From sequence record OL451225.1: a stretch of 64,000 bases of DNA; one strand, given 5' to 3'. The notes below the pieces were generated by a model that was not told the origin of the DNA, made no database searches, and was given only the letters and a program-made list of their open reading frames with translations. Position 1 is the first letter of the stretch; each line of letters begins with the position of its first letter. Shown here one piece after another: positions 38,503 to 57,042 of the stretch. The stretch comes from Escherichia phage P896. Position numbers and translations under genes: made by a program.

Positions 38503-39462
38503 TTATTTTGTGAAAGGACGAATTAAATGTTGGTTAGCCTTAAAGCGTTTAACATAGTCTTCGCGACCCAGGGTGTTGTACATATTAACCACTTCCTGGT
38601 AATGTTCCCAGGCATACTCGCGGAACCATCCAGAAGTAATGGAGGTACAGACTTTTTCCAGCGCAATATGGAAGCTCACAGATGGAGAGATATTGAACTC
38701 ATTAGGAACCTGCGAACGCTCCAGAGCGAGCACACATGCTTCTTCATAAACCCCTGCCAGTTTAATAATCTCAGGGAGTGCTTCAAATTTTTCACGCGAG
38801 GTCATGACTTCTGAATCATCCTTCATATAAAACTTATATGCAGGCTTATCAGCAAGCGCCACAGCCTCGTGGATGGAGTCATGGTCAAGGGTGTAGATTG
38901 TATCATTAAAGAAAGTTTTCTTGCCCACGTCTAGTTTAGGGTGACTGTATGACAGTGTTTCTGCCTGACGCTGCAGCATGATTTTCTGCAGTTCATCATT
39001 AAGAACAATACCCTTATTGCGAAGGTAATTAATATGACTCATGGTCTTCAGGAAGAATGGATTGTTCTTCAGGTAACGATGAGACAATTTAATCGCCAGA
39101 CAAATATCAGGCGTCGCCCAATAGAAACCTGTAAGACGGTCTTTCTTAATATGATTTTCAGCGTATTTCAAGAGACGATAACTTGAGGTGAAATCTTCGT
39201 CTTGAAGCTCACCAGTAATTTCTCGTACGTTGGTCAGGGCACGGACAATATAAGCTTCAAAATAGGTTTCTTTGCCATTGTACATACATTTAAAAGCTTG
39301 GACATCAGGGTTATCCACAGGAACATGAGCACCGAACATACGTGCTTTAAAGTGGTTCCAAGAACCCTGGTCAGCGATAAAGTCCCAATCAGAGTTTTCA
39401 ATTTTCTGACTTTCAATCAGACCAGCGTTATGTAATGCACGAGAACCAATAACTAACATCAT
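38503..39462 (-). CDS. hypothetical protein, 319 aa
   Basis: ORF track; ATG with GAGGAAAAT RBS; no firm motif. Confidence 0.6.
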   Translation of the reverse strand: MMLVIGSRALHNAGLIESQKIENSDWDFIADQGSWNHFKARMFGAHVPVDNPDVQAFKCMYNGKETYFEAYIVRALTNVREITGELQDEDFTSSYRLLKYAENHIKKDRLTGFYWATPDICLAIKLSHRYLKNNPFFLKTMSHINYLRNKGIVLNDELQKIMLQRQAETLSYSHPKLDVGKKTFFNDTIYTLDHDSIHEAVALADKPAYKFYMKDDSEVMTSREKFEALPEIIKLAGVYEEACVLALERSQVPNEFNISPSVSFHIALEKVCTSITSGWFREYAWEHYQEVVNMYNTLGREDYVKRFKANQHLIRPFTK

Positions 39463-39475
39463 AATATTTTCCTCA

Positions 39476-39643
39476 TTAGTAAAGACGAGTTACTTCATAT
39501 TTTCCAAGTGCCGATTTTTTCGCTTCAATTCGTGAGGCAGCAAGATTGGCGGCCTCTAGTGAAGAAAATTGAACCACTTGAGAAGTATTCTGTCTTACTC
39601 CACCTTGCGGGTGAGTGACAAAAACAATAAGAACATTATACAT
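39476..39643 (-). CDS. possible small protein, 55 aa
   Basis: Below ORF-track cutoff; ATG with GAGGAAAAT RBS filling the gap between two genes. Confidence 0.35.
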   Translation of the reverse strand: MYNVLIVFVTHPQGGVRQNTSQVVQFSSLEAANLAASRIEAKKSALGKYEVTRLY

Positions 39644-39653
39644 AATATTTTCC

Positions 39654-39854
39654 TCAAATAATACCGTATGCGTAAATATCTCTTTTAATGCAGGAAACTA
39701 CTTCTTCCAGAGAATCACAAACACGTTCTGTGACGCCTGCGTAATCACCACTGATGGTTACTTTAATGCCATCAGAAACTTCCTGGAGATTAACCTCCAG
39801 TTGGTTGACTTTGGCTTCGTTCAGAACTTTGATTAATTCGTTTGCGATAGACAT
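39654..39854 (-). CDS. hypothetical protein, 66 aa
   Basis: ORF track. Confidence 0.45.
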   Translation of the reverse strand: MSIANELIKVLNEAKVNQLEVNLQEVSDGIKVTISGDYAGVTERVCDSLEEVVSCIKRDIYAYGII

Positions 39855-39918
39855 TTTTATTCTCCTGTTCTGATAACGTGATTGTCATCAGTTGATAGGA
39901 GTATAGTAACACAGTTTT

Positions 39919-40263
39919 TTAGACTTGTATACTGCTTCTACAATATTCTAAAAATAATTTATCGTTGTCTACCGTATCCCAACGACGCCAAGATGGATTC
40001 CAGACCAGAGCGTTGTCACCGCAATCATTGAGCTTAAAATGGTCGTAGTACATAGCTATATGTCTGGTTTCGTCACCAGAGAACCCCAGTATAGGCTCAC
40101 CGTGAGTATGATACATATGATGATGCATTGAGAGGTCGCATTTGTAAAACATCTCACGTTTACCACGAACGAACAAGAAGGCTTGCCCATTCATATAGAA
40201 TTCTTTATCTGTTTTCAAAAGATATTTGAATACCGAATCTTTATGCATAATTCCTCCTACCAC
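39919..40263 (-). CDS. hypothetical His-rich protein, 114 aa
   Basis: ORF track; MHHHMYHTHGE segment. Confidence 0.5.
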   Translation of the reverse strand: MVGGIMHKDSVFKYLLKTDKEFYMNGQAFLFVRGKREMFYKCDLSMHHHMYHTHGEPILGFSGDETRHIAMYYDHFKLNDCGDNALVWNPSWRRWDTVDNDKLFLEYCRSSIQV

Positions 40264-40278
40264 ATCCTTGTGATTAAA

Positions 40279-40506
40279 TTATTTTCCTAACGAAATGCGA
40301 GTAGGTTTTTTACCGAAATATTCTTCATAGGAACCATCTAAACGACCCGCTTTAGACCGACAATACGAATCATACTTTTTGTAATAAGCCAACTCGGTAT
40401 TGTAACGTGGATGTCTATCAGCCATAATAATACTTAACGGCCAACCTTTGGCGTAATCACGAAGACCATTTATTTTACGAATATATCTTTTCTTTAATTT
40501 TAACAT
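40279..40506 (-). CDS. hypothetical basic protein, 75 aa
   Basis: ORF track. Confidence 0.45.
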   Translation of the reverse strand: MLKLKKRYIRKINGLRDYAKGWPLSIIMADRHPRYNTELAYYKKYDSYCRSKAGRLDGSYEEYFGKKPTRISLGK

Positions 40507-40733
40507 GAACTTGGGTACCAGATTTTACCATCGGCACTAGCAACGAAGGTGCGACCAGCTTCTTCCCCATAACAAGAGCTGTTCAACCAGTCTTCAAGAC
40601 GGACTTCGCCGTCATAATCATCAAGCTCAACACCAAAATCTTGAGCAGAAGCCATATCTTTTACTTTCTTATACAGTGCAGCCAGTTCAAGGGCGGCTTT
40701 TTCTAATTCAGCACGTTCAACAGCAGTAGTCAT
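40500..40733 (-). CDS. small acidic protein, member 1 of a W-x-SS-x-x-C C-terminal paralog array (ends KIWYPSSC)
   Basis: ORF track; N-terminal helix and C-terminal Cys as last residue. Confidence 0.5.
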   Translation of the reverse strand: MTTAVERAELEKAALELAALYKKVKDMASAQDFGVELDDYDGEVRLEDWLNSSCYGEEAGRTFVASADGKIWYPSSC

Positions 40734-40742
40734 TTTATCACC

Positions 40743-40970
40743 TTAGCAAGACATAGAGGAGTTAAACCAGAAACCTTTACCATCTGGGATACCGTAATCA
40801 CCACGAATCCAGTCATACTCTTCGTATTCTGGACAACCCGCAGGAATATATCGTTGAAGACTGTCAGCATACACATGAAAGTATTCACCAGTTTTATCGG
40901 CCAGTTGTTCACCTTCACAGATTAGTGCACGGATTTGGTCTTCAATTTCTTTAACAGTTTTAGCAGTCAT
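40743..40970 (-). CDS. small acidic protein, member 2 of the paralog array (ends GFWFNSSMSC)
   Basis: ORF track. Confidence 0.5.
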   Translation of the reverse strand: MTAKTVKEIEDQIRALICEGEQLADKTGEYFHVYADSLQRYIPAGCPEYEEYDWIRGDYGIPDGKGFWFNSSMSC

Positions 40971-40979
40971 TTTATTTCC

Positions 40980-41177
40980 TTAGCATTCATAAGAGGAGGA
41001 CACCCAGGAGCCACCCGTAATTGTAATACAGCCATTGTAAATCGTGATATGACGGTCCAGATGGTTTTCACCTTCGATATAGATATCAGCTTCTTCACGC
41101 TCTTCTTTACAAATCTGGATAACGTTTTCAATAGCTGCCGCGGCAGTACGGATTGCACAATCTAGTTCACGAGACAT
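40980..41177 (-). CDS. small acidic protein, member 3 of the paralog array (ends GGSWVSSSYEC)
   Basis: ORF track. Confidence 0.5.
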   Translation of the reverse strand: MSRELDCAIRTAAAAIENVIQICKEEREEADIYIEGENHLDRHITIYNGCITITGGSWVSSSYEC

Positions 41178-41186
41178 AATAATTCC

Positions 41187-41468
41187 TTAACATTCAGCAG
41201 AAGAGGACACCCAACCACCATTTTCCAGGTCAGTTGTATAGTCATGAGTATTAACAATAGCCCATTCAGGATGACCATGTTCTTCCCAATGAGCAAGGTC
41301 AGCTTTCAGGGCACCAGGAGAATAATAGTCACCGCCCATACCGCGAGCAGGGTATATATTAAAATGAGTCTCATATTTGTCTGCAATTTCCTCGGCACGA
41401 CGAATAGCTTTATGGATGTCATTTACTGCGTTAGCCAGTTCTTTATTTTTACGGTAATCATTCATCAT
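41187..41468 (-). CDS. small acidic protein, member 4 of the paralog array (ends GGWVSSSAEC)
   Basis: ORF track. Confidence 0.5.
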   Translation of the reverse strand: MMNDYRKNKELANAVNDIHKAIRRAEEIADKYETHFNIYPARGMGGDYYSPGALKADLAHWEEHGHPEWAIVNTHDYTTDLENGGWVSSSAEC

Positions 41469-41477
41469 AACGTTTCC

Positions 41478-41768
41478 TTAGCACATTGCCGAAGAGGAGA
41501 CCCAAGCACCAACTGTAACGACACCGTTTTCAACTTCACCGCCGTTGTTTTCAATTTCATTTTTAAACCACTGGGAGCATTCATAACCGACAGGATAATA
41601 TGTACGGCCCGAACCATAATCACCGGTACCAAATTGGATACCATATTCATCTGCGATTTCTTCACAGTGTTTTTCAATTTCAGAGGTCTTATTTAGAAGA
41701 GAATAGATAGCTTTTTCTGCAGATTTCTCATCATAATACTTGGGGATAGCAATTTCAATTTTATTCAT
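41478..41768 (-). CDS. small acidic protein, member 5 of the paralog array (ends GAWVSSSAMC)
   Basis: ORF track. Confidence 0.5.
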   Translation of the reverse strand: MNKIEIAIPKYYDEKSAEKAIYSLLNKTSEIEKHCEEIADEYGIQFGTGDYGSGRTYYPVGYECSQWFKNEIENNGGEVENGVVTVGAWVSSSAMC

Positions 41769-42118
41769 GATTTACATTCCTTAATAAAGGTTTCAAGTTC
41801 ATTGCGTTTTGTTTTGTCTAGGAACTTATTATACTCAGCCATTGCTGAAGCATATCTCTTCCGACTAGGAGCATTCACGGCATTTGTGTGACAGATATCA
41901 TACACAACAGGGATAAAATAAGACACAACAGCCGGAGCGATTATCATAAAGAAGCCCATCTCAATAGGCATCACTCCCTCGATTGCAGCCATAACCGTGG
42001 TCATTACCAGGCCAACCAGGCCGCCAAGCATGGCGGTGACAATCCCTAATAATAAATTGGCACCAATATCATATTCAGCCAATTGATAAACATGTGATGC
42101 AAGACTAGGCCGTTCCAT
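41765..42118 (-). CDS. membrane protein, 117 aa, C-terminal FIKECKS tail
   Basis: ORF 41765..42211 trimmed to ATG at 42118 (AAGGAGG RBS); three hydrophobic helices. Confidence 0.5.
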   Translation of the reverse strand: MERPSLASHVYQLAEYDIGANLLLGIVTAMLGGLVGLVMTTVMAAIEGVMPIEMGFFMIIAPAVVSYFIPVVYDICHTNAVNAPSRKRYASAMAEYNKFLDKTKRNELETFIKECKS

Positions 42119-42464
42119 TACGAACCTCCTTAATAAATTCTTCGGCGCATTTAATTTTGTGCTCTTCTTGTAGGGAAACACATTTTTGTTCCCACTCTTT
42201 AACTCGTCCACGATATCCTTTATTCATATGATTTTGATGCCACACATTTATCAATACCATACACAGGACTGTAATAAAAGGAGCTGCAATTACTAGCGTC
42301 CAGGCGACTCCAACACTAATGATATTCATATCCCCACAAAGCACCATCATTATAACCCCAACGATGCACATGGACAAAGCTCCAAATGGAGGCATAAGGT
42401 CTTTATCAATCTTGTCTGCGTATACAAATTTTTCTGGTTTACTTGGCAGATATAACGTTCGCAT
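42105..42464 (-). CDS. membrane protein, 119 aa, C-terminal FIKEVRN tail
   Basis: ORF 42105..42500 trimmed to ATG at 42464 (AAAGGGG RBS); two hydrophobic helices. Confidence 0.5.
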   Translation of the reverse strand: MRTLYLPSKPEKFVYADKIDKDLMPPFGALSMCIVGVIMMVLCGDMNIISVGVAWTLVIAAPFITVLCMVLINVWHQNHMNKGYRGRVKEWEQKCVSLQEEHKIKCAEEFIKEVRNGTA

Positions 42465-43011
42465 TTTTAACCCCTTTAGCATATTCACGACATTCAGCAA
42501 TAAAACGATTAAGCTTACGTTTCCGTTTACGACTCTCTAATGTGTACTCAGCCGCCAAATCAAGAAGCTCATCTTTATCATAATTTTTAATATCAGTATA
42601 AGTTGGGCGGCGGTCAACCATTCCAAAGTGGTCACCATTTTCCAACATCAAATAACACACCAAATGGTCATCATCGTTCGCATTAATAAGTTGCCTATAA
42701 TCATCTGGGTCATTTAACGCATACACGGAATAACTCAGCCCACCGAATTCCACTCGTTGAATACCTAGATTTACATCAATAATTTCCAAGGCATCTGCAA
42801 AAGAAAGGTCTTCAGCTAAAGCAAAAATAAAAGGCAATTTTGTAGTATCACCGCGGCTAGTTGTTCTTCTTAAGAAATCATTGGAATAACCCAAGTCACC
42901 GCGGATTCTATAAAGAACTGTGTTAGTTTCAGTGGCAAGACCACTACCGCCAAACCAGTCTACATTTGATAGAAGGTCAGTATATAAGCTCATAATTTTC
43001 TCCTCTCCCAA
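42439..43011 (-). CDS. hypothetical protein, 190 aa, C-terminal RFIAECRE motif
   Basis: ORF track; soluble; shares the tail motif with the adjacent membrane proteins. Confidence 0.55.
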   Translation of the reverse strand: MGEEKIMSLYTDLLSNVDWFGGSGLATETNTVLYRIRGDLGYSNDFLRRTTSRGDTTKLPFIFALAEDLSFADALEIIDVNLGIQRVEFGGLSYSVYALNDPDDYRQLINANDDDHLVCYLMLENGDHFGMVDRRPTYTDIKNYDKDELLDLAAEYTLESRKRKRKLNRFIAECREYAKGVKNANVISAK

Positions 43012-43036
43012 TTAGGGGGCAAAGCCCCCTTTTATC

Positions 43037-43630
43037 TTACTTAAGTGAATTGATGTATTCTTCAATGTCAGCGGACGTGGTATCCACACCAACCTGTGGA
43101 CCTTTGAAGGTTTCAACACGCATCAGAGTGTCTTCAATATCAATCTTGGTCAATGCAGCGATTTCAACAACATCATCTGCGGTTGCAATACCTAGGGCAG
43201 ACACCTTACGGGTTTCGCGGATGTATTCCAGTTTAACAGCTAGTTCCTGACGAGAGTCATCCAGCTCTTTAACTTTCAATTTAATTTCATTACGCATTTC
43301 AACATAATCATCTGCCTTCTTACGAAGTTGTTTAGCAGTGCGACGATACAGGAGACCCAGTTTAGCATGGACCTGGACATCAGCACCATCAGCAATCAGT
43401 TTTCGGATTTCACGCTCTTTTGAAGCGGCAAGCTGGTCTTTTTCATTCGCTAACTCGCGGATGCGTTTTTCTTCATTAACAGACTTAACATGGGCAGTCT
43501 GGAGCTCAGTAATCTTATCAATCAGGGTAGAAGCTGCTTTAGTATACTGGTCTTCAATAGACAGGTTTTGCGCCATTGCAGTACCCAGTTTGGAGCGGAT
43601 GAATTCAACAATTTTCTTTAAAGTATTCAT
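43037..43630 (-). CDS. coiled-coil protein, 197 aa (PspA-like architecture, low confidence)
   Basis: ORF track; long heptad-rich helices; similarity to PspA is architectural only. Confidence 0.5.
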
Positions 43631-43660
43631 GGTATTTCCTTCAGATGGTTAAAGTTTTAT

Positions 43661-43705
43661 TATCCAGGGAACATACTATCATGTTCCCAGAGGTATGTAA
43701 ACATT
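43661..43705 (-). promoter_or_regulatory. early promoter (-35 GTTTACA) with GGGAACAT/ATGTTCCC inverted repeat around a TAGTAT -10
   Basis: Read on the minus strand upstream of the coiled-coil gene. Confidence 0.45.
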
Positions 43706-44104
43706 TTATTTCATTTTTGCGAGGCAGATTTCATTGGCTTCCCATTGAGCTTGCTTAATAATAGCTTTGGATACAGGAACCTTTTGACCATAAGTTTTTG
43801 ACGTTGAGAGAACAATATATTTGTTTGCCTCATTATGCCAACCCCATGATTTTTCACCATGAGTACCTTTAACTACAGCTGACACCTCAACAGAACAACC
43901 ATCAGCGCCAATCTTGGTATCAACAATCCATTCATTTCGCTTAATTGCTTCTTCCAATGCTGCCGCTTCCGCCATCCAGTGCGTTTCAGGGTCTATTTGT
44001 TCAATCTCACGAGTTAACGCAGCTCCCAGGTCTTTTGCATATTTTTGTTGCTCTGGGGTTAATGAGTCATATAACTTTTTCATTTCTTTATCTTCAATAT
44101 TCAT
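43706..44104 (-). CDS. hypothetical protein, 132 aa
   Basis: ORF 43706..44134 trimmed to ATG at 44104 (GAGGAAAAT RBS); a GGGGC-GAAA-GCCCC hairpin lies just upstream of the RBS. Confidence 0.5.
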   Translation of the reverse strand: MNIEDKEMKKLYDSLTPEQQKYAKDLGAALTREIEQIDPETHWMAEAAALEEAIKRNEWIVDTKIGADGCSVEVSAVVKGTHGEKSWGWHNEANKYIVLSTSKTYGQKVPVSKAIIKQAQWEANEICLAKMK

Positions 44105-44138
44105 AATATTTTCCTCAGGGGGCTTTCGCCCCAATCAT

Positions 44139-44444
44139 TTAGATTTTGTTTTCCTGCACACCATAATAAAGTTCATCAGACACAATATCCAGGATGCGGC
44201 GAACATATTCATCATGGTATTGGCAGTCAAAATCAAATGCAACAGTAGTTTCCGCTTCACGAGTGAATTTAACTTGCACATTCAGGTGATTAACAACGTT
44301 AGTTAATTTATCAGTAAAGAACTCTTTTGCTACCGCCTGTTGGACTTGCACTTTGAACTTGGTGTTACGAATCATATTTTCAGCAGATGCGAAATTACCA
44401 GTTTTATCAAAGTCAACAAGCGCCAGGTTGATGATGAATTTCAT
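44139..44444 (-). CDS. hypothetical protein, 101 aa
   Basis: ORF track; ATG with GGAGAATAAA RBS. Confidence 0.5.
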   Translation of the reverse strand: MKFIINLALVDFDKTGNFASAENMIRNTKFKVQVQQAVAKEFFTDKLTNVVNHLNVQVKFTREAETTVAFDFDCQYHDEYVRRILDIVSDELYYGVQENKI

Positions 44445-51921: not shown

Positions 51922-52755
51922 TTATGAATTTCTCCATACTTTCTGGGAAGAGAATCTTTTGCCTTTCGACATAAATTGTTGCAATGGAAGCATAACAACG
52001 TTTGCCCAGTCGCTGGGCTTGATTTCAGTAATAGTACCTTTTATATTGCCAGGTATATATGCTTTAATCATCTGGTCAGCCCCTTTAAATCCCTTCACCT
52101 TTGACCAATCAATTTTCAGATGAGTCTTGTTCGTAATCGTAGGAGTATTAGCATATTGCTTAAGAAGTTCCTCAAGGAATTCTTGACGTGCCTTTGGTGG
52201 AATATAGTGCAAGTTCAAACCATACATCAAATTGTGCTTACCTAGTCCAAGATAAATGATTAACGGGTATTTGTCCCAGTACGGAAGAGTATCCTTATGC
52301 TTTGCATCATAGATATAAGCATAAATCTTACCTGGTTGAGGTTTAGCCGTTACGTGGCCACGAACTGATTTCTTAATTGTCTCGGCGAACCATCTGGCAG
52401 ATTTGGTGTTGCTTGCAGCACCTTCGTTAGCAATCTTATCTCTTATGCTCTTCCTAAAACTATTCACCATTATCAGCTGGCGTTCAGCCTTCGTAAGTTT
52501 ACCAGCAGGTTTCTTTTTGAGCTTGGATACTTTATAAGCAGTCTGAATTCTCGAATGGTATCTTGACATGCTTTTGGTAAAGGTCGAATAGTTGATTCCT
52601 TTCTCTTCAGCAAACTTCTTCGAGGTCATTCCCTTTTCTTTTGCTGTATAAAATTCAACCCCTATCTCAACCCATTGTTGTTCGGATTTACTGGGTTTCG
52701 GACCCGGTTTATCTGCAGATTCATTGATAAATGTAAAAATACTCATCCTTTCCAT
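51922..52755 (-). CDS. 2: DNA end protector protein gp2
   Basis: 277 aa, basic; position between genes 4 and 3; start could be 52755 or 52746. Confidence 0.8.
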
Positions 52756-53192
52756 CCTAATTTTTTCAGTGAGTTTTCAGTGATTATCCTGAACGTTATA
52801 CCCATCTTATCAGCTGTAGCTTGCGCAGCTTTCCATTTGTCAGAGTTAACGCTCCAGGTGTACATCTCATTAATAAATCTCTTTTTACTCGCAGTGGTAT
52901 TATTGGCCGGTTTGGTTGGGGGTCTTGTTTCTTTTAATGGCTTAACTTCGAAAAAGAACTGTTGCCCCGTATCGAACTTAACCCAGAAATCCATATAATA
53001 TCTGCGTTTTTTCCCTTCAGCGTTGCAGAAGTATGGAATAATCACAGTCTCAGAACCCCATTGAACAACGTTCGGATGGTTGTCGAGCCATCTCATCAGC
53101 CACGCCTCCCAGCTTGACCGGTATTGTATTTTCTTCCAGTCGCCCTTATATTTTTCTATATTAGTGGGCTTGAATTTCCCGGAGTATGCCAT
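52743..53192 (-). CDS. 4: head completion protein gp4
   Basis: 149 aa; ATG with AGGAGG RBS; late promoter TATAAATA 30 nt upstream. Confidence 0.85.
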
Positions 53193-53218
53193 ATAGCCTC
53201 CTAATAAATATTGATATA

Positions 53219-53228
53219 CTTATTTATA
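53219..53228 (-). promoter_or_regulatory. T4-type late promoter TATAAATA for gene 4 (minus strand), inside the palindrome ATTTATAAAT
   Basis: Exact TATAAATA on the minus strand; the plus strand reads TATAAATG toward gene 53. Confidence 0.6.
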
Positions 53229-53240
53229 AATGGAGGCTTT

Positions 53241-53843
53241 ATGCTTTTTTCATTTTTTAACCCAATTGATTATGATGCGAAAACAATCAGAAAAAACTCG
53301 GCATCATTGACGAAAGAAGACGTCTTAAGCATTCCAATGACTGACATCTTCAGAAACTACCGCGCTTATTTCGATAAGGTCGCTGCTAATTATACACCCA
53401 AAACCTATTACATCGCAGGAGCTCCGAGACCTGAAGAACTTGCATATCAGCTCTATGGGAACACGCAACTCTATTGGGTTCTCCTGATGATTAATGACAT
53501 CTATGACCCTTATTATGGTTGGCTCGGCTCTCAGGAATCATCCTATCAGGCATCTATTCAGAAATATTCGAATGTCGGTGGTAACCAGGTCCTTTATCAT
53601 GTGAATGAAGATGGTGAGAAGTTCTGGAACCTTGTATCTTATCCTGATAATCCATACACCTGGTACGATAAAGGTGACCGCAACAGATTATATCCGCAAT
53701 ACGAAGGCCCATTGGCTGCAGTGGATATCTATGAAGATGCTATCCGTAAAAATGAATACAAACGCGAAATAAAAATAATTGACCCAGAAGATATTGAGTC
53801 ATTTATTTCCGCATTAATCCGTGAAATGGAAAAGGCACTCTAA
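53241..53843 (+). CDS. 53: baseplate wedge protein gp53
   Basis: ORF 53211..53843 trimmed to ATG at 53241 with GGAGG RBS; 200 aa; divergent from gene 4. Confidence 0.85.
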   Translation: MLFSFFNPIDYDAKTIRKNSASLTKEDVLSIPMTDIFRNYRAYFDKVAANYTPKTYYIAGAPRPEELAYQLYGNTQLYWVLLMINDIYDPYYGWLGSQESSYQASIQKYSNVGGNQVLYHVNEDGEKFWNLVSYPDNPYTWYDKGDRNRLYPQYEGPLAAVDIYEDAIRKNEYKREIKIIDPEDIESFISALIREMEKAL

Positions 53844-54478
53844 TGTTTTATTATGTATATAAAATAACCAATAATATTAACGGCAAATTTTATATCGGGG
53901 CGCATAGTACATCAAATATGGATGATGGATATATGGGCTCAGGTAAATTAATTAAACGTGCCATACTAAAATATGGCATTGAAAATTTCAAAAAAGAAAT
54001 ATTAAAATTTGTTGATTCCAAACAAGAAATGTATGAACTTGAAAAGGAACTTGTTGTTCTTAATGAAAACTCATACAATTTAAAACCAGGCGGCTCCGGT
54101 GGATTTTTAAAACATGATAACTTTAAAGGTCGAAAACATAGCCAGAAAACTAAAGATATTATGAGTGCAAATAACTCAGGTAAAAATAATCCCATGTATG
54201 GAAAAAAGCGAGACCAGCATGGAGTAAATGCACCAAATTATGGCAAAAAATGTTCAGAAGAGAAAAAGAAGATTCTTTCTGATAAGCTTAAAAAGCATTT
54301 TGAAAATGAGCAGACAATAACTAAGAACATGGGGTTTATACCAACGTCGGTTGAAACCCGTTATGTATCTCGACATATTAAAAAGTTAGGATTTGATTTT
54401 TACCAATTCAATCGAAATATATGTGAGCATAATATTTCCATAGTTAAAAATATTTTAAAACAGAGGAAGGCTTTATGA
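53843..54478 (+). CDS. GIY-YIG homing endonuclease (Seg-like)
   Basis: N-terminal YVYKITNNINGKFYIGAHS...GYMGSG (GIY-YIG motif) and C-terminal NUMOD3-like repeats (GRKHSQKTKDIMS, GKKCSEEKKKILS); AT-rich; start overlaps gp53 stop (TAATG), stop overlaps gp5 start (ATGA). Confidence 0.8.
   Translation: MFYYVYKITNNINGKFYIGAHSTSNMDDGYMGSGKLIKRAILKYGIENFKKEILKFVDSKQEMYELEKELVVLNENSYNLKPGGSGGFLKHDNFKGRKHSQKTKDIMSANNSGKNNPMYGKKRDQHGVNAPNYGKKCSEEKKKILSDKLKKHFENEQTITKNMGFIPTSVETRYVSRHIKKLGFDFYQFNRNICEHNISIVKNILKQRKAL
53843..54478 (+). mobile_element. free-standing homing endonuclease gene inserted between baseplate genes 53 and 5
   Basis: T4 has no gene between 53 and 5; GIY-YIG ORF fills the junction exactly. 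Confidence 0.6.
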
Positions 54479-56217
54479 TTAATATGTCAGATAATGTAAG
54501 TTGGTTCGTCGGGGTTGTCGAAGACCGAATGGACCCACTTCAGCAAGGTCGTGTGCGTGTTCGTGTATGGGGTATGCATCCATATGAGAAAGCACAAGGG
54601 CCTGTTAAAGGTATCAGAACCGAAGACCTTCCTTGGATGTCTGTATTGATGCCGACATCATCTGCATCAGTTTCTGGGATTCAAACGGCCATGACTGGTA
54701 TGGTCCCGGGTACTCAAGTATATGGTCACTTTTTAGACAAGTGGAAGCTCAACGGTCTTGTTATTGGTACGTATGGTTCAGCCTCAAGACAAAAAGCAAA
54801 TCCTAACGAAGGTTTCTCTGACCCCACAGGGCAATACCCACTTTATGTTGGTAATGATGCTGCAGCGCTTAACCGTGGCGGTGAAGTCGGTTATGATGCA
54901 ACTTCGAACGTAATTCAGGATGCGAACCTTGACCTTGGTATTAACCCCGATGGTCTTGATTTGAGTCAGGTTAAACCGGATGATAATCCTAATTTCACAA
55001 TTGAAAATATGCTCCACCGTGATGAAGGTCTTCGTTTGAAAGTATATTGGGACACCGAAGGATATCCAACTATAGGTATAGGGCACTTAATTGCACCACA
55101 ACCTATTAGAGATATGAATCAGATAAACAAAATATTATCTAATCAAATAGGTCGTGAAGTTAAAGGTAACCCTGGTGCAATATCAATGGACGAGGCTTCT
55201 AAGTTATTCCAAGAAGACCTTAAAAAAGTTCAAAATGATATAGGTAGGCATAGTGTTGTGGGTCCGGTTTACAATAAAGAAAACCGTTCGAGACAAATGG
55301 CTCTTGAAAACATGGCTTTCCAAATGGGATTAGGTGGATTGGCTAAATTCCGTGGAATGCTTAGCGCAATGTTAGTAGGTGATTATAAAAAGGCATTTGA
55401 GGAAGCACGTAATTCAGTATGGTTTAACCAAACTAAAGGACGTGCATCAAGGGTATCAATGATTATCCTTACCGGTAATATGGAATCATATGGTATTATG
55501 GCCCCCAAAGAAAGAGCGTTTAAAGGGCGTTCATATAGGATGATTCAAACCTTTACAGCCCCTGTAAATTCAGACCCTGCTGACCCGTGGACTCCAGAAG
55601 ATACAAGGATTCTGTTTAAAGAGCCAGAATCAAGTTACAAGGGCGAATATCCTTACGTGCAGACAATGCAAACCGAAGGCGGGCATGTACAGGAATTCGA
55701 TAATACCCCTGGGCAAGAACGTTATCGACTGATTCATCCGACCGGTTCCTATGAGGAAGTTGCACCAGATGGTCGTAAGACTTCGAAGACAGTGGCTGAT
55801 GGTTATTATATGACCCAGGGCGATTCGAGTACTTACGTTGGTGGTAATAATAAAGTCAACGTTGGTGGTGATGAAACCTATTATAATATGGCTAACGTTC
55901 GACGTCAGACTGATGGAAACGAAAGTATTCATATCAGAGGGAATGAAACCAAAACTATCGAAGGCGATGGTACAATTATCGTCAAAGGTAATGTAAGTAT
56001 TCTTGTCGAAGGTAATGCTGAAATAACTGTTAAAGGTGATGCAAAAACTCTTGTCGAAGGTAACCATGATTATACGGTAAATGGTAATGTCAAATGGTCC
56101 GTTAATGGAAATGTTGATATGACTGTGGCTGGCAACTGGTCCGAAACAATGTCAACAATGAGTTCAATTGCATCTGGTCAATATACTATCGATGGTTCGA
56201 GGATTGACATTGGCTAA
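54475..56217 (+). CDS. 5: baseplate hub and tail lysozyme gp5
   Basis: 580 aa; N-terminal OB domain, central T4-lysozyme-like domain (LHRDEGLRLKVYWDTEGYPTIGIGHLIA), C-terminal beta-helix repeats. Confidence 0.95.
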   Translation: MINMSDNVSWFVGVVEDRMDPLQQGRVRVRVWGMHPYEKAQGPVKGIRTEDLPWMSVLMPTSSASVSGIQTAMTGMVPGTQVYGHFLDKWKLNGLVIGTYGSASRQKANPNEGFSDPTGQYPLYVGNDAAALNRGGEVGYDATSNVIQDANLDLGINPDGLDLSQVKPDDNPNFTIENMLHRDEGLRLKVYWDTEGYPTIGIGHLIAPQPIRDMNQINKILSNQIGREVKGNPGAISMDEASKLFQEDLKKVQNDIGRHSVVGPVYNKENRSRQMALENMAFQMGLGGLAKFRGMLSAMLVGDYKKAFEEARNSVWFNQTKGRASRVSMIILTGNMESYGIMAPKERAFKGRSYRMIQTFTAPVNSDPADPWTPEDTRILFKEPESSYKGEYPYVQTMQTEGGHVQEFDNTPGQERYRLIHPTGSYEEVAPDGRKTSKTVADGYYMTQGDSSTYVGGNNKVNVGGDETYYNMANVRRQTDGNESIHIRGNETKTIEGDGTIIVKGNVSILVEGNAEITVKGDAKTLVEGNHDYTVNGNVKWSVNGNVDMTVAGNWSETMSTMSSIASGQYTIDGSRIDIG

Positions 56218-56251
56218 TATACTTCCAATGAGCACTGACTTAGGAGACTCC

Positions 56252-56749
56252 ATGGAAGGAGCTTCAATCGATGTTACGTTTACAGCTCAATTAGAAACAA
56301 ACGAAACATTAGTCGAAATAAATATAACTGAATATGAGGCCACCCCTGGCGTTAATGTTGAGGGTAATCATCTTTATGGTGTTTATGAATCCGTGTTCGG
56401 ATTTGCAGATGATGCGCTTAAATACCGACTTAACGATGAATTCAAAACTGCCGGTTCATGGGAAGACCTTCCTACCGATAAGAGTACTCAATTGTATCTC
56501 TGGAGGGCCCCAGCGAGCCTCCAGAAGGTCTTTTCATACACGGTAACCCTAACCTATGACTTTCAAGAAGAGAGCTCTGGTGGAGACACAGGGAGCTCTG
56601 GTGGCAGTAATAGCCATGCAGGTAATGAGACCGACCCACCTCCTGCTCCAGTAAGAAAGACAATGACAAAAGTTTACACAAAAACTATCGTCGGTAACTG
56701 GTCAAGGTGGGCAGATAAATTACGTTCATACGTATACGCGAGGGATTAA
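56252..56749 (+). CDS. hypothetical protein at the gene 5.1 position, 165 aa
   Basis: ORF 56168..56749 trimmed to ATG at 56252 with AGGAG RBS. Confidence 0.55.
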
Positions 56750-57042
56750 TGGCTGGATTAAGTTTCAATCAATGTGTTACAGCAGGTCACGAAGCATGGC
56801 CACCGACTGTAATCAATGCAACTCAAGGTAAAGTATTCACCGGGGGAATTCCTGTATTAGTTGCCGGAGACCCTATTACCGAGCATACCGAAATTAAAAA
56901 ACCATATGAAACCCACGGCGGAGTAACACAACCGAGAACTCCAAAGGTATTCGTTACCGGTAAGAAAGCTGTTCAAATGGCAGACCCGATTTCATGTGGT
57001 GATACTGTGGCTCAAGCCTCATCAAAAGTCTTTATAAAATAG
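56749..57042 (+). CDS. 5.4: PAAR-repeat spike-tip protein gp5.4
   Basis: 97 aa PAAR-like protein between gp5 and gp6. Confidence 0.8.

What the first reader, a model, noticed from the sequence alone, without database searches (positions are those of the whole stretch)
53843..54478. GIY-YIG homing endonuclease inserted precisely between baseplate genes 53 and 5
The ORF has a canonical GIY-YIG N-terminus and NUMOD3-like C-terminal repeats. It is markedly AT-richer than its neighbours. Its start overlaps the gp53 stop and its stop overlaps the gp5 start, the footprint expected of a mobile homing-endonuclease gene that invaded an intergenic junction. It sits inside an essential late operon, so its expression and cleavage specificity may affect marker exclusion in mixed infections.
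Basis: partly seen in the sequence, partly recalled or inferred. Interest (0 to 1): 0.6.

Follow-up and report, generated by a model that had tools for sequence, protein, structure and literature searches.

The report
Mobile Seg-type endonuclease gene between baseplate genes
A selfish, recently mobile GIY-YIG homing-endonuclease gene of the well-known T4 "Seg" kind sits between phage baseplate genes 53 and 5; it is an ordinary example of its class, apart from carrying its own replacement copy of the last four codons of gene 53 and a DNA-binding tail with no known relatives.

Summary
ORF 53843-54478 (+, 211 aa) overlaps the gene 53 stop (TAATG) and the gene 5 start (ATGA). It has GIY-YIG and NUMOD3 domains and is the most AT-rich 636-bp stretch of the window (GC 0.30 vs 0.40). 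The window is a Gaprivervirus-like T4-type coliphage. About 95% of its relatives lack exactly these 635 bp. Four phages from two genera carry a copy with only 2-4 differences in 636 nt, although their flanking genes differ by up to about 30%. A second allele (83.5% identical) shows dN/dS of about 0.08. All 18 invariant residues shared with T4 SegC are present, and the predicted N-terminal fold matches I-TevI. So it is a free-standing Seg-family homing endonuclease gene that has moved recently.

There is no intergenic gap: 53 and 5 overlap in empty sites, and the cassette brings a recoded copy of the last four codons of 53. The native copy now ends the endonuclease ORF, just downstream of gene 5's ribosome-binding site. 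The NUMOD3 motifs are central; the real C-terminal ~60 residues have no homologue among 1.84 billion proteins. One GenBank record already calls the orthologue "putative Seg-like homing endonuclease". It is a new member of a known kind, of modest interest.

The parts
53241..53843 (+). Gene 53 (baseplate wedge subunit). The start is taken from the annotated orthologues; the mechanical ORF begins at TTG 53211.
   Evidence: Pfam Phage_gp53 6.9e-74; orthologue annotations.
53832..53843 (+). Cassette-borne, recoded copy of the last three codons plus stop of gene 53 (AAG GCA CTC TAA = K A L stop). It now supplies the C-terminus of gp53. Positions 53831 and 53837 are the only flank sites that separate all young-allele carriers from all empty sites.
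   Evidence: Junction alignment; linked-site scan over gp4-gp5.
53843..54478 (+). Free-standing Seg-type GIY-YIG homing endonuclease gene, 211 aa.
   Evidence: orthologue in IME540 annotated 'putative Seg-like homing endonuclease'.
53843..54106 (+). GIY-YIG catalytic domain, residues 1-88.
   Evidence: pLDDT above 93. Top Foldseek hits are the I-TevI catalytic domain 1MK0/1LN0, prob 1.00, TM 0.58-0.62. hhalign to I-TevI residues 3-98. About 61% identity to SegB and 46% to T4 SegC.
54122..54298 (+). Linker with two NUMOD3 motifs, residues ~94-152.
   Evidence: Pfam NUMOD3 1.3e-12, two stretches when scanned alone.
54299..54475 (+). Orphan C-terminal module, residues ~153-211, presumed to be the sequence-specific DNA-binding domain.
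   Evidence: Found only in the five insert-bearing phages by tblastn. No true homologue among 1.84 billion representatives. No Pfam family. dN/dS 0.09 between the two alleles. AF2 confidence is low.
54467..54478 (+). Native, host-derived tail of gene 53 (AAG GCT TTA TGA). It is now read as the last codons of the endonuclease (K A L stop), and it overlaps the gene 5 ATG. The Shine-Dalgarno sequence for gene 5 (GAGG, 54463-54466) lies just upstream.
   Evidence: This copy follows each host lineage's own empty site: window = SP18/phage 212, PSD2001 = VR20/CJ20. SD context.
54475..56217 (+). Gene 5 (baseplate hub / tail lysozyme).
   Evidence: Pfam Gp5_OB 1.5e-60, Phage_lysozyme, Gp5_C, Gp5_trimer_C.

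Best explanation
This is a free-standing, promoter-less homing-endonuclease cassette of the T4 Seg (GIY-YIG + NUMOD3) family. Shown: it sits in the late 53-5 transcription unit of a Gaprivervirus-type phage, with start and stop codons overlapping those of its neighbours. Inferred: it is co-transcribed with gene 53 and translated from a weak AAGG Shine-Dalgarno sequence. Inferred from family behaviour: in a mixed infection the protein makes a double-strand break in a co-infecting relative that lacks the gene, and recombinational repair copies the cassette plus a short stretch of flank into the broken genome. Shown: because genes 53 and 5 overlap, the cassette carries its own recoded last four codons of gene 53. 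The displaced native copy now ends the endonuclease ORF and sits next to gene 5's ribosome-binding site, so both essential genes stay intact. Shown: the cassette has moved recently between divergent phages of two genera, and its protein is under purifying selection. Inferred, about 50% confidence: the recognition site spans the 53/5 junction, so insertion itself destroys it. That is closer to intron-encoded I-TevI than to the remote-cutting T4 SegF and SegG.
For: Domains and fold. All 18 family-invariant residues shared with T4 SegC are present. Sporadic presence: 5 of about 100 related records. Empty sites differ by a clean 635-bp absence. The young allele differs by 2 (PSD2001), 2 (P479) and 4 (KIT01) of 636 nt from the window, and all but one of these differences (54367) lie in the host-derived last 10 nt. 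By contrast, gp53 synonymous differences between window and KIT01 are 0.84 per site, against 0.033 in the endonuclease gene. KIT01 is a mosaic: a donor-type tract runs from 53802/53810 to 54468, inside otherwise Dhakavirus-type sequence. Between the window and IME540 alleles dN/dS is 0.079 overall, and 0.034, 0.033 and 0.092 for the three regions. One copy (FB) is frameshifted, as expected in the decay phase of a homing-endonuclease gene's life cycle. There is no exact late-promoter consensus on the + strand in or just before the ORF, matching the 'promoter-less cassette' class described for segC, segF and segG (PMC2988022). For the junction-spanning target: within gp4-gp53-gp5 only 53831 and 53837 separate carriers from empty sites, and downstream the window is identical to empty-site phages SP18 and phage 212 for 212 nt.
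Against: No cleavage activity, target site or homing cross has been measured. The I-TevI Arg27 segment has no counterpart in the alignment; this is true of the whole Seg subfamily, including the active SegB and SegC. KIT01's right junction matches the old IME540/FB allele and not a Dhakavirus empty site. That transfer may therefore have been allele replacement by ordinary recombination, not homing into an empty site. T4 Seg enzymes usually cut hundreds of bp from their gene (PMC2988022), and SegB also cuts its own genome (PMC2330249). So the lack of distal carrier-specific differences does not prove that the target spans the junction. The C-terminal module is modelled with low confidence, and its DNA-binding role is assumed.
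Confidence: 0.85

Rival explanations
1. The enzyme is a typical remote-cutting Seg endonuclease. It cleaves inside gene 53, gene 5 or further away, hundreds of bp from its own gene. The cassette is inherited only when resection reaches it, and protection of its own genome relies on low expression, not on a disrupted target.
For: This is the rule for the characterised T4 SegF, SegG and MobE (PMC2988022). SegB cuts T4's own DNA and is thought to be controlled by expression level (PMC2330249). The endonuclease has a weaker Shine-Dalgarno sequence (AAGG) than gp53 or gp5.
Against: The one mapped natural transfer (KIT01) has very short co-converted flanks: 33-41 nt on the left and none on the right. 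That is hard to reconcile with a break hundreds of bp away, which should drag the intervening donor sequence along. No carrier-specific polymorphism exists within about 1 kb on either side.
Confidence: 0.3
2. The gene is an inactive or passive passenger. Its patchy distribution and near-identical copies come only from the very high general recombination among co-infecting T4-like phages, plus occasional deletion.
For: KIT01's right junction looks like the old allele, which fits plain allele replacement. The flanks are mosaic everywhere in this phage group. The FB copy is frameshifted.
Against: There is strong purifying selection on all three protein regions (dN/dS 0.03-0.09), and every family-invariant residue is intact. 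General recombination does not explain why a 0.3%-divergent 635-bp segment sits in backgrounds that are 10-30% divergent, with boundaries that hug the ORF.
Confidence: 0.08
3. The endonuclease has been co-opted for a function that benefits the phage, such as excluding competitors' baseplate alleles or driving local amplification or recombination. It would be retained for that function and not as a purely selfish element.
For: T4 Seg enzymes cause localized marker exclusion (PMC2988022). SegB was recently reported to help immune evasion by amplifying anti-defence loci (PMC13096335 abstract). Purifying selection has persisted between two old alleles.
Against: About 95% of close relatives do without it and one copy is decaying. 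Nothing defence-related lies next to it; the neighbours are structural genes.
Confidence: 0.1

Closest known systems
Phage T4 SegC (free-standing GIY-YIG endonuclease between genes 5.1 and 5.3/5.4)
   Same: It is the best T4 match, 46% identity over residues 2-135, and shares all 18 invariant catalytic-domain residues. It is a promoter-less cassette in the same late baseplate gene cluster, only about 2 kb downstream in the T4 map (PMC2988022).
   Different: It occupies a different insertion site and has an unrelated C-terminal region: BLASTP finds no alignment between the two tails. SegC's target lies in the 5.1/5.3 region.
Phage T4 SegB (tRNA-region GIY-YIG homing endonuclease)
   Same: The catalytic domain is about 61% identical over residues 1-88 (RB18 segB). 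SegB is a proven site-specific enzyme that leaves 2-nt 3' overhangs and drives preferential inheritance with co-conversion (PMC2330249).
   Different: SegB recognises a tRNA T-psi-C motif and lies among tRNA genes. Similarity ends after the catalytic domain.
I-TevI (td intron endonuclease of T4)
   Same: It has the same catalytic fold (Foldseek prob 1.00; hhalign) and the same modular plan of catalytic domain, linker and C-terminal DNA-binding module. If the target spans the insertion point, the cleavage logic would also be I-TevI-like.
   Different: I-TevI is intron-encoded, whereas no intron or other Rfam family is present here. Identity is only about 20%. The I-TevI Arg27 segment has no aligned counterpart. 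No zinc finger or confidently predicted HTH is seen here.
Mitochondrial mobile endonuclease ORFs that carry a foreign C-terminus for the host gene (Allomyces macrogynus atp6; Glomus atp6, atp9, cox2, nad3)
   Same: The mobile ORF brings a replacement 3' end for the invaded gene, and the native 3' end is displaced downstream. The native copy matches close relatives, while the inserted copy is divergent but (near-)synonymous (PMC3630166). That is the pattern seen here.
   Different: In those cases tens to hundreds of codons are duplicated and the native copy becomes a pseudogene. Here only four codons are duplicated, and the native copy is reused as the endonuclease's own C-terminus, adjacent to gene 5's ribosome-binding site.

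Membership tests
GIY-YIG nuclease superfamily (Pfam PF01541 / PF19835) | GIY ... YIG motif pair separated by about 10-11 residues at the N-terminus | tested here: met
   YVY (residues 4-6) and YIG (17-19). Y6, Y17 and G19 are invariant in 40 homologues. Pfam GIY-YIG scores 24.3 bits (cut-off 22.6) and SegE_GIY-YIG 27 bits (cut-off 25).
GIY-YIG nuclease superfamily (Pfam PF01541 / PF19835) | Conserved catalytic Glu (I-TevI E75) and Asn (I-TevI N90) | tested here: met
   E67 and N79 are invariant. hhalign puts Y78-N79 on I-TevI Y89-N90. The Glu-rich helix (E65/E67/E69) aligns with I-TevI E73-E75; the exact register is uncertain by two residues.
GIY-YIG nuclease superfamily (Pfam PF01541 / PF19835) | Conserved Arg (I-TevI R27) following the YIG strand | tested here: inconclusive
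   The I-TevI segment DFEKRWKRH aligns to a gap in the Seg-type profile, and no Arg is invariant in the family. H21, T23, D28, Y30 and near-invariant K35 occupy that region. T4 SegC shares this arrangement. SegC is listed as active (PMC2988022), as is the closely similar SegB (PMC2330249), so this is a subfamily trait and not a lesion.
GIY-YIG nuclease superfamily (Pfam PF01541 / PF19835) | Three-stranded sheet flanked by helices (I-TevI catalytic-domain fold) | tested here: met
   In the AF2 model residues 1-88 have pLDDT above 93, with strand-strand-helix-strand-helix order. The top three PDB hits are 1MK0/1LN0, prob 0.99-1.00, TM 0.58-0.62 normalised to the target.
T4-type Seg free-standing homing endonucleases | Free-standing gene between conserved phage genes, not inside an intron or intein | tested here: met
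   The ORF abuts gene 53 and gene 5 with overlapping stop/start codons. No Rfam family, group I introns included, matches 52700-55200 at E <= 1.
T4-type Seg free-standing homing endonucleases | GIY-YIG domain followed by NUMOD-type linker/DNA-binding modules | tested here: met
   NUMOD3 at 1.3e-12, two stretches. phrog_314 'homing endonuclease' at 5.1e-49 over residues 1-195. The last ~60 aa are not a recognised NUMOD.
T4-type Seg free-standing homing endonucleases | Sporadic presence or absence among otherwise collinear close relatives | tested here: met
   Five of about 100 records carry it. The empty sites are precise.
T4-type Seg free-standing homing endonucleases | Site-specific double-strand cleavage of the gene-less allele (2-nt 3' overhangs) | not testable with these tools
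   This needs purified protein and cloned VR20 or SP18 53/5 DNA.
T4-type Seg free-standing homing endonucleases | Unidirectional transfer with co-conversion of flanking markers in mixed infection | tested here: inconclusive
   A natural mosaic is consistent with it: the KIT01 donor tract 53802/53810-54468 includes 33-41 nt of gene 53. However, KIT01's right junction resembles the old allele, so allele replacement cannot be excluded. No cross was done.
T4-type Seg free-standing homing endonucleases | Cleavage site hundreds of bp from the endonuclease gene ('intronless homing' hallmark, PMC2988022) | tested here: inconclusive
   Comparative data point the other way, with short co-conversion and carrier-specific differences only at 53831 and 53837. 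This is indirect, and SegB shows that self-cleavage can be tolerated (PMC2330249).

The most novel reading that the evidence does not exclude
The orphan C-terminal module is a previously unseen DNA-recognition domain that reads the overlapping 53/5 stop-start junction and directs cleavage within a few tens of bp of the insertion point. This would be a free-standing phage endonuclease that behaves like an intron-encoded one. It could colonise a site with no intergenic DNA only because the cassette carries a recoded four-codon replacement for the invaded gene's 3' end. That would be a miniature phage version of the mitochondrial 'mobile ORF plus foreign C-terminus' design.
Probability: 0.25. Interest if true: 0.5.

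Novelty: new member of a known kind. Interest (0 to 1): 0.3.

Why it matters
The finding adds a well-documented natural example to the Seg family. It has a defined empty site in two phage genera, two alleles of different age, one decaying copy and a mapped natural transfer tract, so the whole invade-persist-decay cycle can be seen at one locus. It also shows how a homing-endonuclease gene can settle between two overlapping essential genes without harming either: it duplicates and recodes four codons. If the junction-spanning target is confirmed, the orphan C-terminal module would be a new specificity domain of possible use for engineered GIY-YIG nucleases. For phage-therapy genomics, it flags the gene 3/2/4/53/5 block of Gaprivervirus and Dhakavirus as a hot spot where mixed infections will skew the inheritance of baseplate alleles.

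Tried and rejected
1. Sequence search of the PDB with the protein and with a 40-sequence profile found nothing significant; I-TevI scored only E = 0.77. The fold search was needed to link the domain to I-TevI.
2. The C-terminal tail looked like a helix-turn-helix when aligned by eye with the tails of SegC and P0040. That idea has no support. BLASTP finds no alignment with SegC's tail, Pfam has no family even at E <= 10, the AF2 model is low-confidence there, and the exhaustive HMMER search returned only FB's own truncated copy and three long repetitive proteins matched in 8-11 short stretches. I leave it as 'presumed DNA-binding'.
3. I looked for an RNA hairpin that might mask the endonuclease or gene 5 ribosome-binding site, as occurs in some T4 endonuclease genes. 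The folds are no better than shuffled sequence (z = -0.07 and +1.39).
4. I looked for a dedicated late promoter. There is no exact TATAAATA on the + strand between 53150 and 54520, only one-mismatch sites.
5. An IMG/VR search for more orthologues found none; the best hit was 48% identity over the N-terminal half.
6. There are no paralogues or other GIY-YIG motifs elsewhere in the window.
7. No Rfam family, group I introns included, matches around the insert.
8. I looked for distal carrier-specific polymorphisms that could mark a remote cleavage site and found none in gp4-gp5.

Full report
**Observation**

The window has an ATG-initiated ORF at 53843..54478 on the + strand, encoding 211 aa. The sequence reads ...GCA CTC TAATG TTT..., so the gene 53 stop (TAA, 53841-53843) shares one base with the ORF's ATG. 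At the other end it reads ...GCT TT ATGA TTA..., so the ORF's TGA (54476-54478) overlaps the gene 5 ATG (54475-54477). The upstream gene is gp53 (Pfam Phage_gp53, 6.9e-74). The downstream gene is gp5 (Gp5_OB 1.5e-60, Phage_lysozyme, Gp5_C repeats).

The ORF scores above the curated cut-offs for NUMOD3 (1.3e-12), SegE_GIY-YIG (5.8e-6) and GIY-YIG (4e-5). It also matches phrog_314 'homing endonuclease' at 5.1e-49. Its GC content is 0.300 (GC3 0.255), against 0.398 for gp53, 0.418 for gp5 and a window mean of 0.397 (sd 0.024). No other 636-bp stretch of the 64 kb is as AT-rich. The NUMOD3 motifs lie in the middle of the protein (residues ~96-152, two stretches), and the real C-terminus is something else.

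**Genomic context and distribution**

The window is a T4-type coliphage of the VR7/SP18 group (genus Gaprivervirus). SP18 is 97.4% identical over the first 25 kb, and phage 212 is 97.3% identical over the last 25 kb. No record in the phage collection is identical to the window.

A 2.5-kb query across the locus matched 99 phage records, and only five cover the insert. These are PSD2001 and P479 (Gaprivervirus) and KIT01, IME540 and FB (Dhakavirus). The others lack exactly 635 bp, including the closest relatives VR20 (97.3%) and SP18 (96.9%). A reciprocal search from KIT01 gave the same five carriers among 102 records. In IME540 the orthologue is already annotated 'putative Seg-like homing endonuclease'; in the other four it is 'hypothetical protein'. 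IMG/VR contains no orthologue. I found no paper that describes this gene or this insertion site.

**Anatomy of the junction**

- In empty Gaprivervirus genomes the site reads ...CGT GAA ATG GAG AAG GCT CTA TGA TTA AT..., so genes 53 and 5 overlap by ATGA.
- In empty Dhakavirus genomes it reads ...GAG AAA GCC CTC TAATGATTAAC, so they overlap by TAATG.
- There is therefore no intergenic DNA to invade.

In occupied genomes the end of gene 53 reads GAA AAG GCA CTC TAA (53829-53843). The endonuclease ORF ends AGG AAG GCT TTA TGA (54464-54478). The last three codons plus stop of gene 53 (K-A-L-stop) are thus present twice.

The right-hand copy follows each host lineage's own empty site. The window has GCTTTATGA, like SP18 and phage 212. 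PSD2001 has GCTCTATGA, like VR20 and CJ20. The left-hand copy travels with the endonuclease gene and differs only at synonymous positions.

So the mobile unit supplies a recoded C-terminus for gp53. The displaced native tail is reused as the endonuclease's own last codons. Gene 5's Shine-Dalgarno sequence (GAGG, 54463-54466) lies immediately upstream of that tail, eight bases before the gene 5 ATG. The same design, on a much larger scale, is documented for mitochondrial mobile endonuclease ORFs that bring a foreign C-terminus for atp6, atp9, cox2 or nad3 (PMC3630166).

**Evidence of mobility**

The window's copy differs from PSD2001 and P479 at 2 of 636 positions each, and from KIT01 at 4. All but one of those differences (54367) fall in the host-derived last ten bases. 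Over the same comparisons the flanks are far more divergent.

- P479 is 85-97% identical in the flanks, and KIT01 only 67-86%.
- Between window and KIT01, synonymous differences per site are 0.84 in gp53 and 0.58 in gp5, against 0.033 in the endonuclease gene.
- The window's flanks are closer to the empty-site phages VR20, SP18 and phage 212 (95-100%) than to other carriers.

Site-by-site classification shows KIT01 is a mosaic. It is Dhakavirus-type up to 53801, donor-type from 53810 through the ORF to 54468, and Dhakavirus-type again from 54469. The transferred piece is thus the ORF plus 33-41 nt of the 3' end of gene 53.

There is one caveat. KIT01's right junction (GGAAAGCGCTATGA) equals that of the old IME540/FB allele and not an empty Dhakavirus site. 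That event may therefore have replaced an older copy rather than filled an empty site.

**Evidence that the protein is functional**

IME540 and FB carry a second allele, 83.5% identical in DNA, at exactly the same position. Between the two alleles dN/dS is 0.079 overall. It is 0.034 for residues 1-88, 0.033 for residues 89-135 and 0.092 for residues 136-211. All three regions have therefore been under purifying selection. FB's copy has an extra A in an A-run that truncates it at 170 aa. This may be real decay or a homopolymer sequencing error.

In an alignment of 40 homologues that includes T4 SegC, 18 columns are invariant: Y6, N10, Y17, G19, H21, T23, D28, Y30, G32, G34, G45, F49, M63, E67, Y78, N79, G83 and G84. 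The window protein has every one.

The AlphaFold model is confident for residues 1-88 (pLDDT above 93). Its best structural matches in the PDB are the I-TevI catalytic domain entries 1MK0 and 1LN0 (probability 0.99-1.00, TM 0.58-0.62). Profile comparison with I-TevI taken from a T4 record aligns Y6, Y17/G19 and Y78-N79 with I-TevI Y6, Y17/G19 and Y89-N90.

The I-TevI segment that holds Arg27 has no counterpart in this alignment. This holds for the whole Seg-type subfamily, including SegC. SegC is listed as active, and SegB (about 61% identical over residues 1-88) is a proven site-specific endonuclease (PMC2988022; PMC2330249). I therefore treat this as a subfamily trait and not a defect.

**The C-terminal module**

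By tblastn, residues 130-211 occur only in the five carrier phages among 50,697 phage records. An exhaustive HMMER scan of 1.84 billion representative proteins returned only FB's truncated copy and three long repetitive proteins matched in many short stretches. Pfam finds nothing and the structural model is unreliable there.

By analogy with I-TevI and other Seg proteins this should be the sequence-specific DNA-binding part. That is an inference, and the helix-turn-helix I suspected from the alignment has no statistical support.

**Expression**

No exact T4 late-promoter consensus (TATAAATA) lies on the + strand within or just upstream of the ORF. No RNA structure better than shuffled controls covers either start codon, and no Rfam family, group I introns included, matches the region.

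The gene therefore looks like the 'promoter-less cassettes' segC, segF and segG, which ride on host transcripts (PMC2988022). It would be read from the late gene 53 message, using a weak AAGG Shine-Dalgarno sequence seven bases before its ATG and possibly coupling to gp53 termination. This is inferred and not shown.

**Where does it cut?**

Characterised free-standing T4 endonucleases usually cut hundreds of bp from their own gene (PMC2988022). Here the comparative data lean the other way.

- Across gp4-gp53-gp5, the only positions where all young-allele carriers differ from all eight empty sites are 53831 and 53837, both inside the recoded tail copy.
- Downstream of the insert the window is identical to empty-site phages SP18 and phage 212 for 212 nt.
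- The one mapped transfer has very short co-converted flanks.

If the enzyme distinguishes occupied from empty alleles at all, the distinguishing sequence must be the junction itself. That would make it behave more like an intron-encoded enzyme. The sequence just downstream of the junction is nearly invariant between the two genera, which would make it a plausible target.

I put this at about 50%. SegB shows that a Seg enzyme can tolerate sites in its own genome and rely on low expression (PMC2330249), and no cleavage has been measured here.

**Verdict**

It meets every membership criterion that could be tested here except the Arg27 position, which is inconclusive for the whole subfamily. The biochemical criteria remain untested.

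It is a new member of a known kind, and orthologues are already in GenBank, one of them correctly labelled. The details of some interest are the four-codon 'replacement tail' that lets it sit between overlapping essential genes, the orphan C-terminal module, and the hint of junction-proximal cleavage. I score overall interest at 0.3.

Noticed in passing
window 52743-53192 (-): The gp4 head-completion protein matches Pfam Tn7_TnsA-like_N (endonuclease N-terminal domain) at 2.4e-21. One relative annotates the orthologue as 'head completion nuclease'.
   Followed up: no
L001:592-1239 (-) in PSD2001, the same position in P479 (L005); corresponds to the gene 2 / gene 4 overlap at window 52743-52755: PSD2001 and P479 carry a second, different GIY-YIG/NUMOD3 endonuclease gene between genes 2 and 4, which the window lacks. 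VR7 has a MobB-like HNH gene upstream of gene 2, and phage 212 has an extra 708-nt ORF between genes 4 and 53. The 3/2/4/53/5 block looks like a hot spot for free-standing endonuclease genes.
   Followed up: partly
window 56168-57042 and the equivalent region of L004, L007 and L009: The region downstream of gp5 is polymorphic among relatives. The window, VR20 and PSD2001 have 5.1 plus a PAAR-motif 5.4 (window 56749-57042, PF05488 1.7e-10). SP18, CJ20 and FB have a longer gp5 (1788 nt) followed by a ~2-kb 'RB43ORF205w-like' gene.
   Followed up: no
window ~39000-44400: Many close relatives show no megablast match to this stretch (matches start at query positions 2183, 5137 or 5439 of 39001-64000). 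It holds small ORFs, six of which have no Pfam hit, so it is a variable accessory region.
   Followed up: partly
L007:2336-2972 (phage FB): FB's copy of the endonuclease gene has one extra A in an A-run (alignment column 481), which truncates the ORF at 170 aa. It could be genuine decay or a homopolymer sequencing error.
   Followed up: partly
L002:2324-2336 (IME540) and L007 (FB), the left tail copy: In the old allele the cassette-borne gene 53 tail reads GAG AAG TCA CTC TAA, so gp53 ends E-K-S-L instead of E-K-A-L. The replacement tail is therefore not strictly synonymous in every lineage.
   Followed up: no
window 53193-53240: The 48-nt gene 4 / gene 53 divergent intergenic region holds an exact late-promoter consensus on the - strand (53221-53228, facing gene 4), but only one-mismatch versions on the + strand (AATAAATA at 53203, TATAAATG at 53225) for gene 53.
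   Followed up: no
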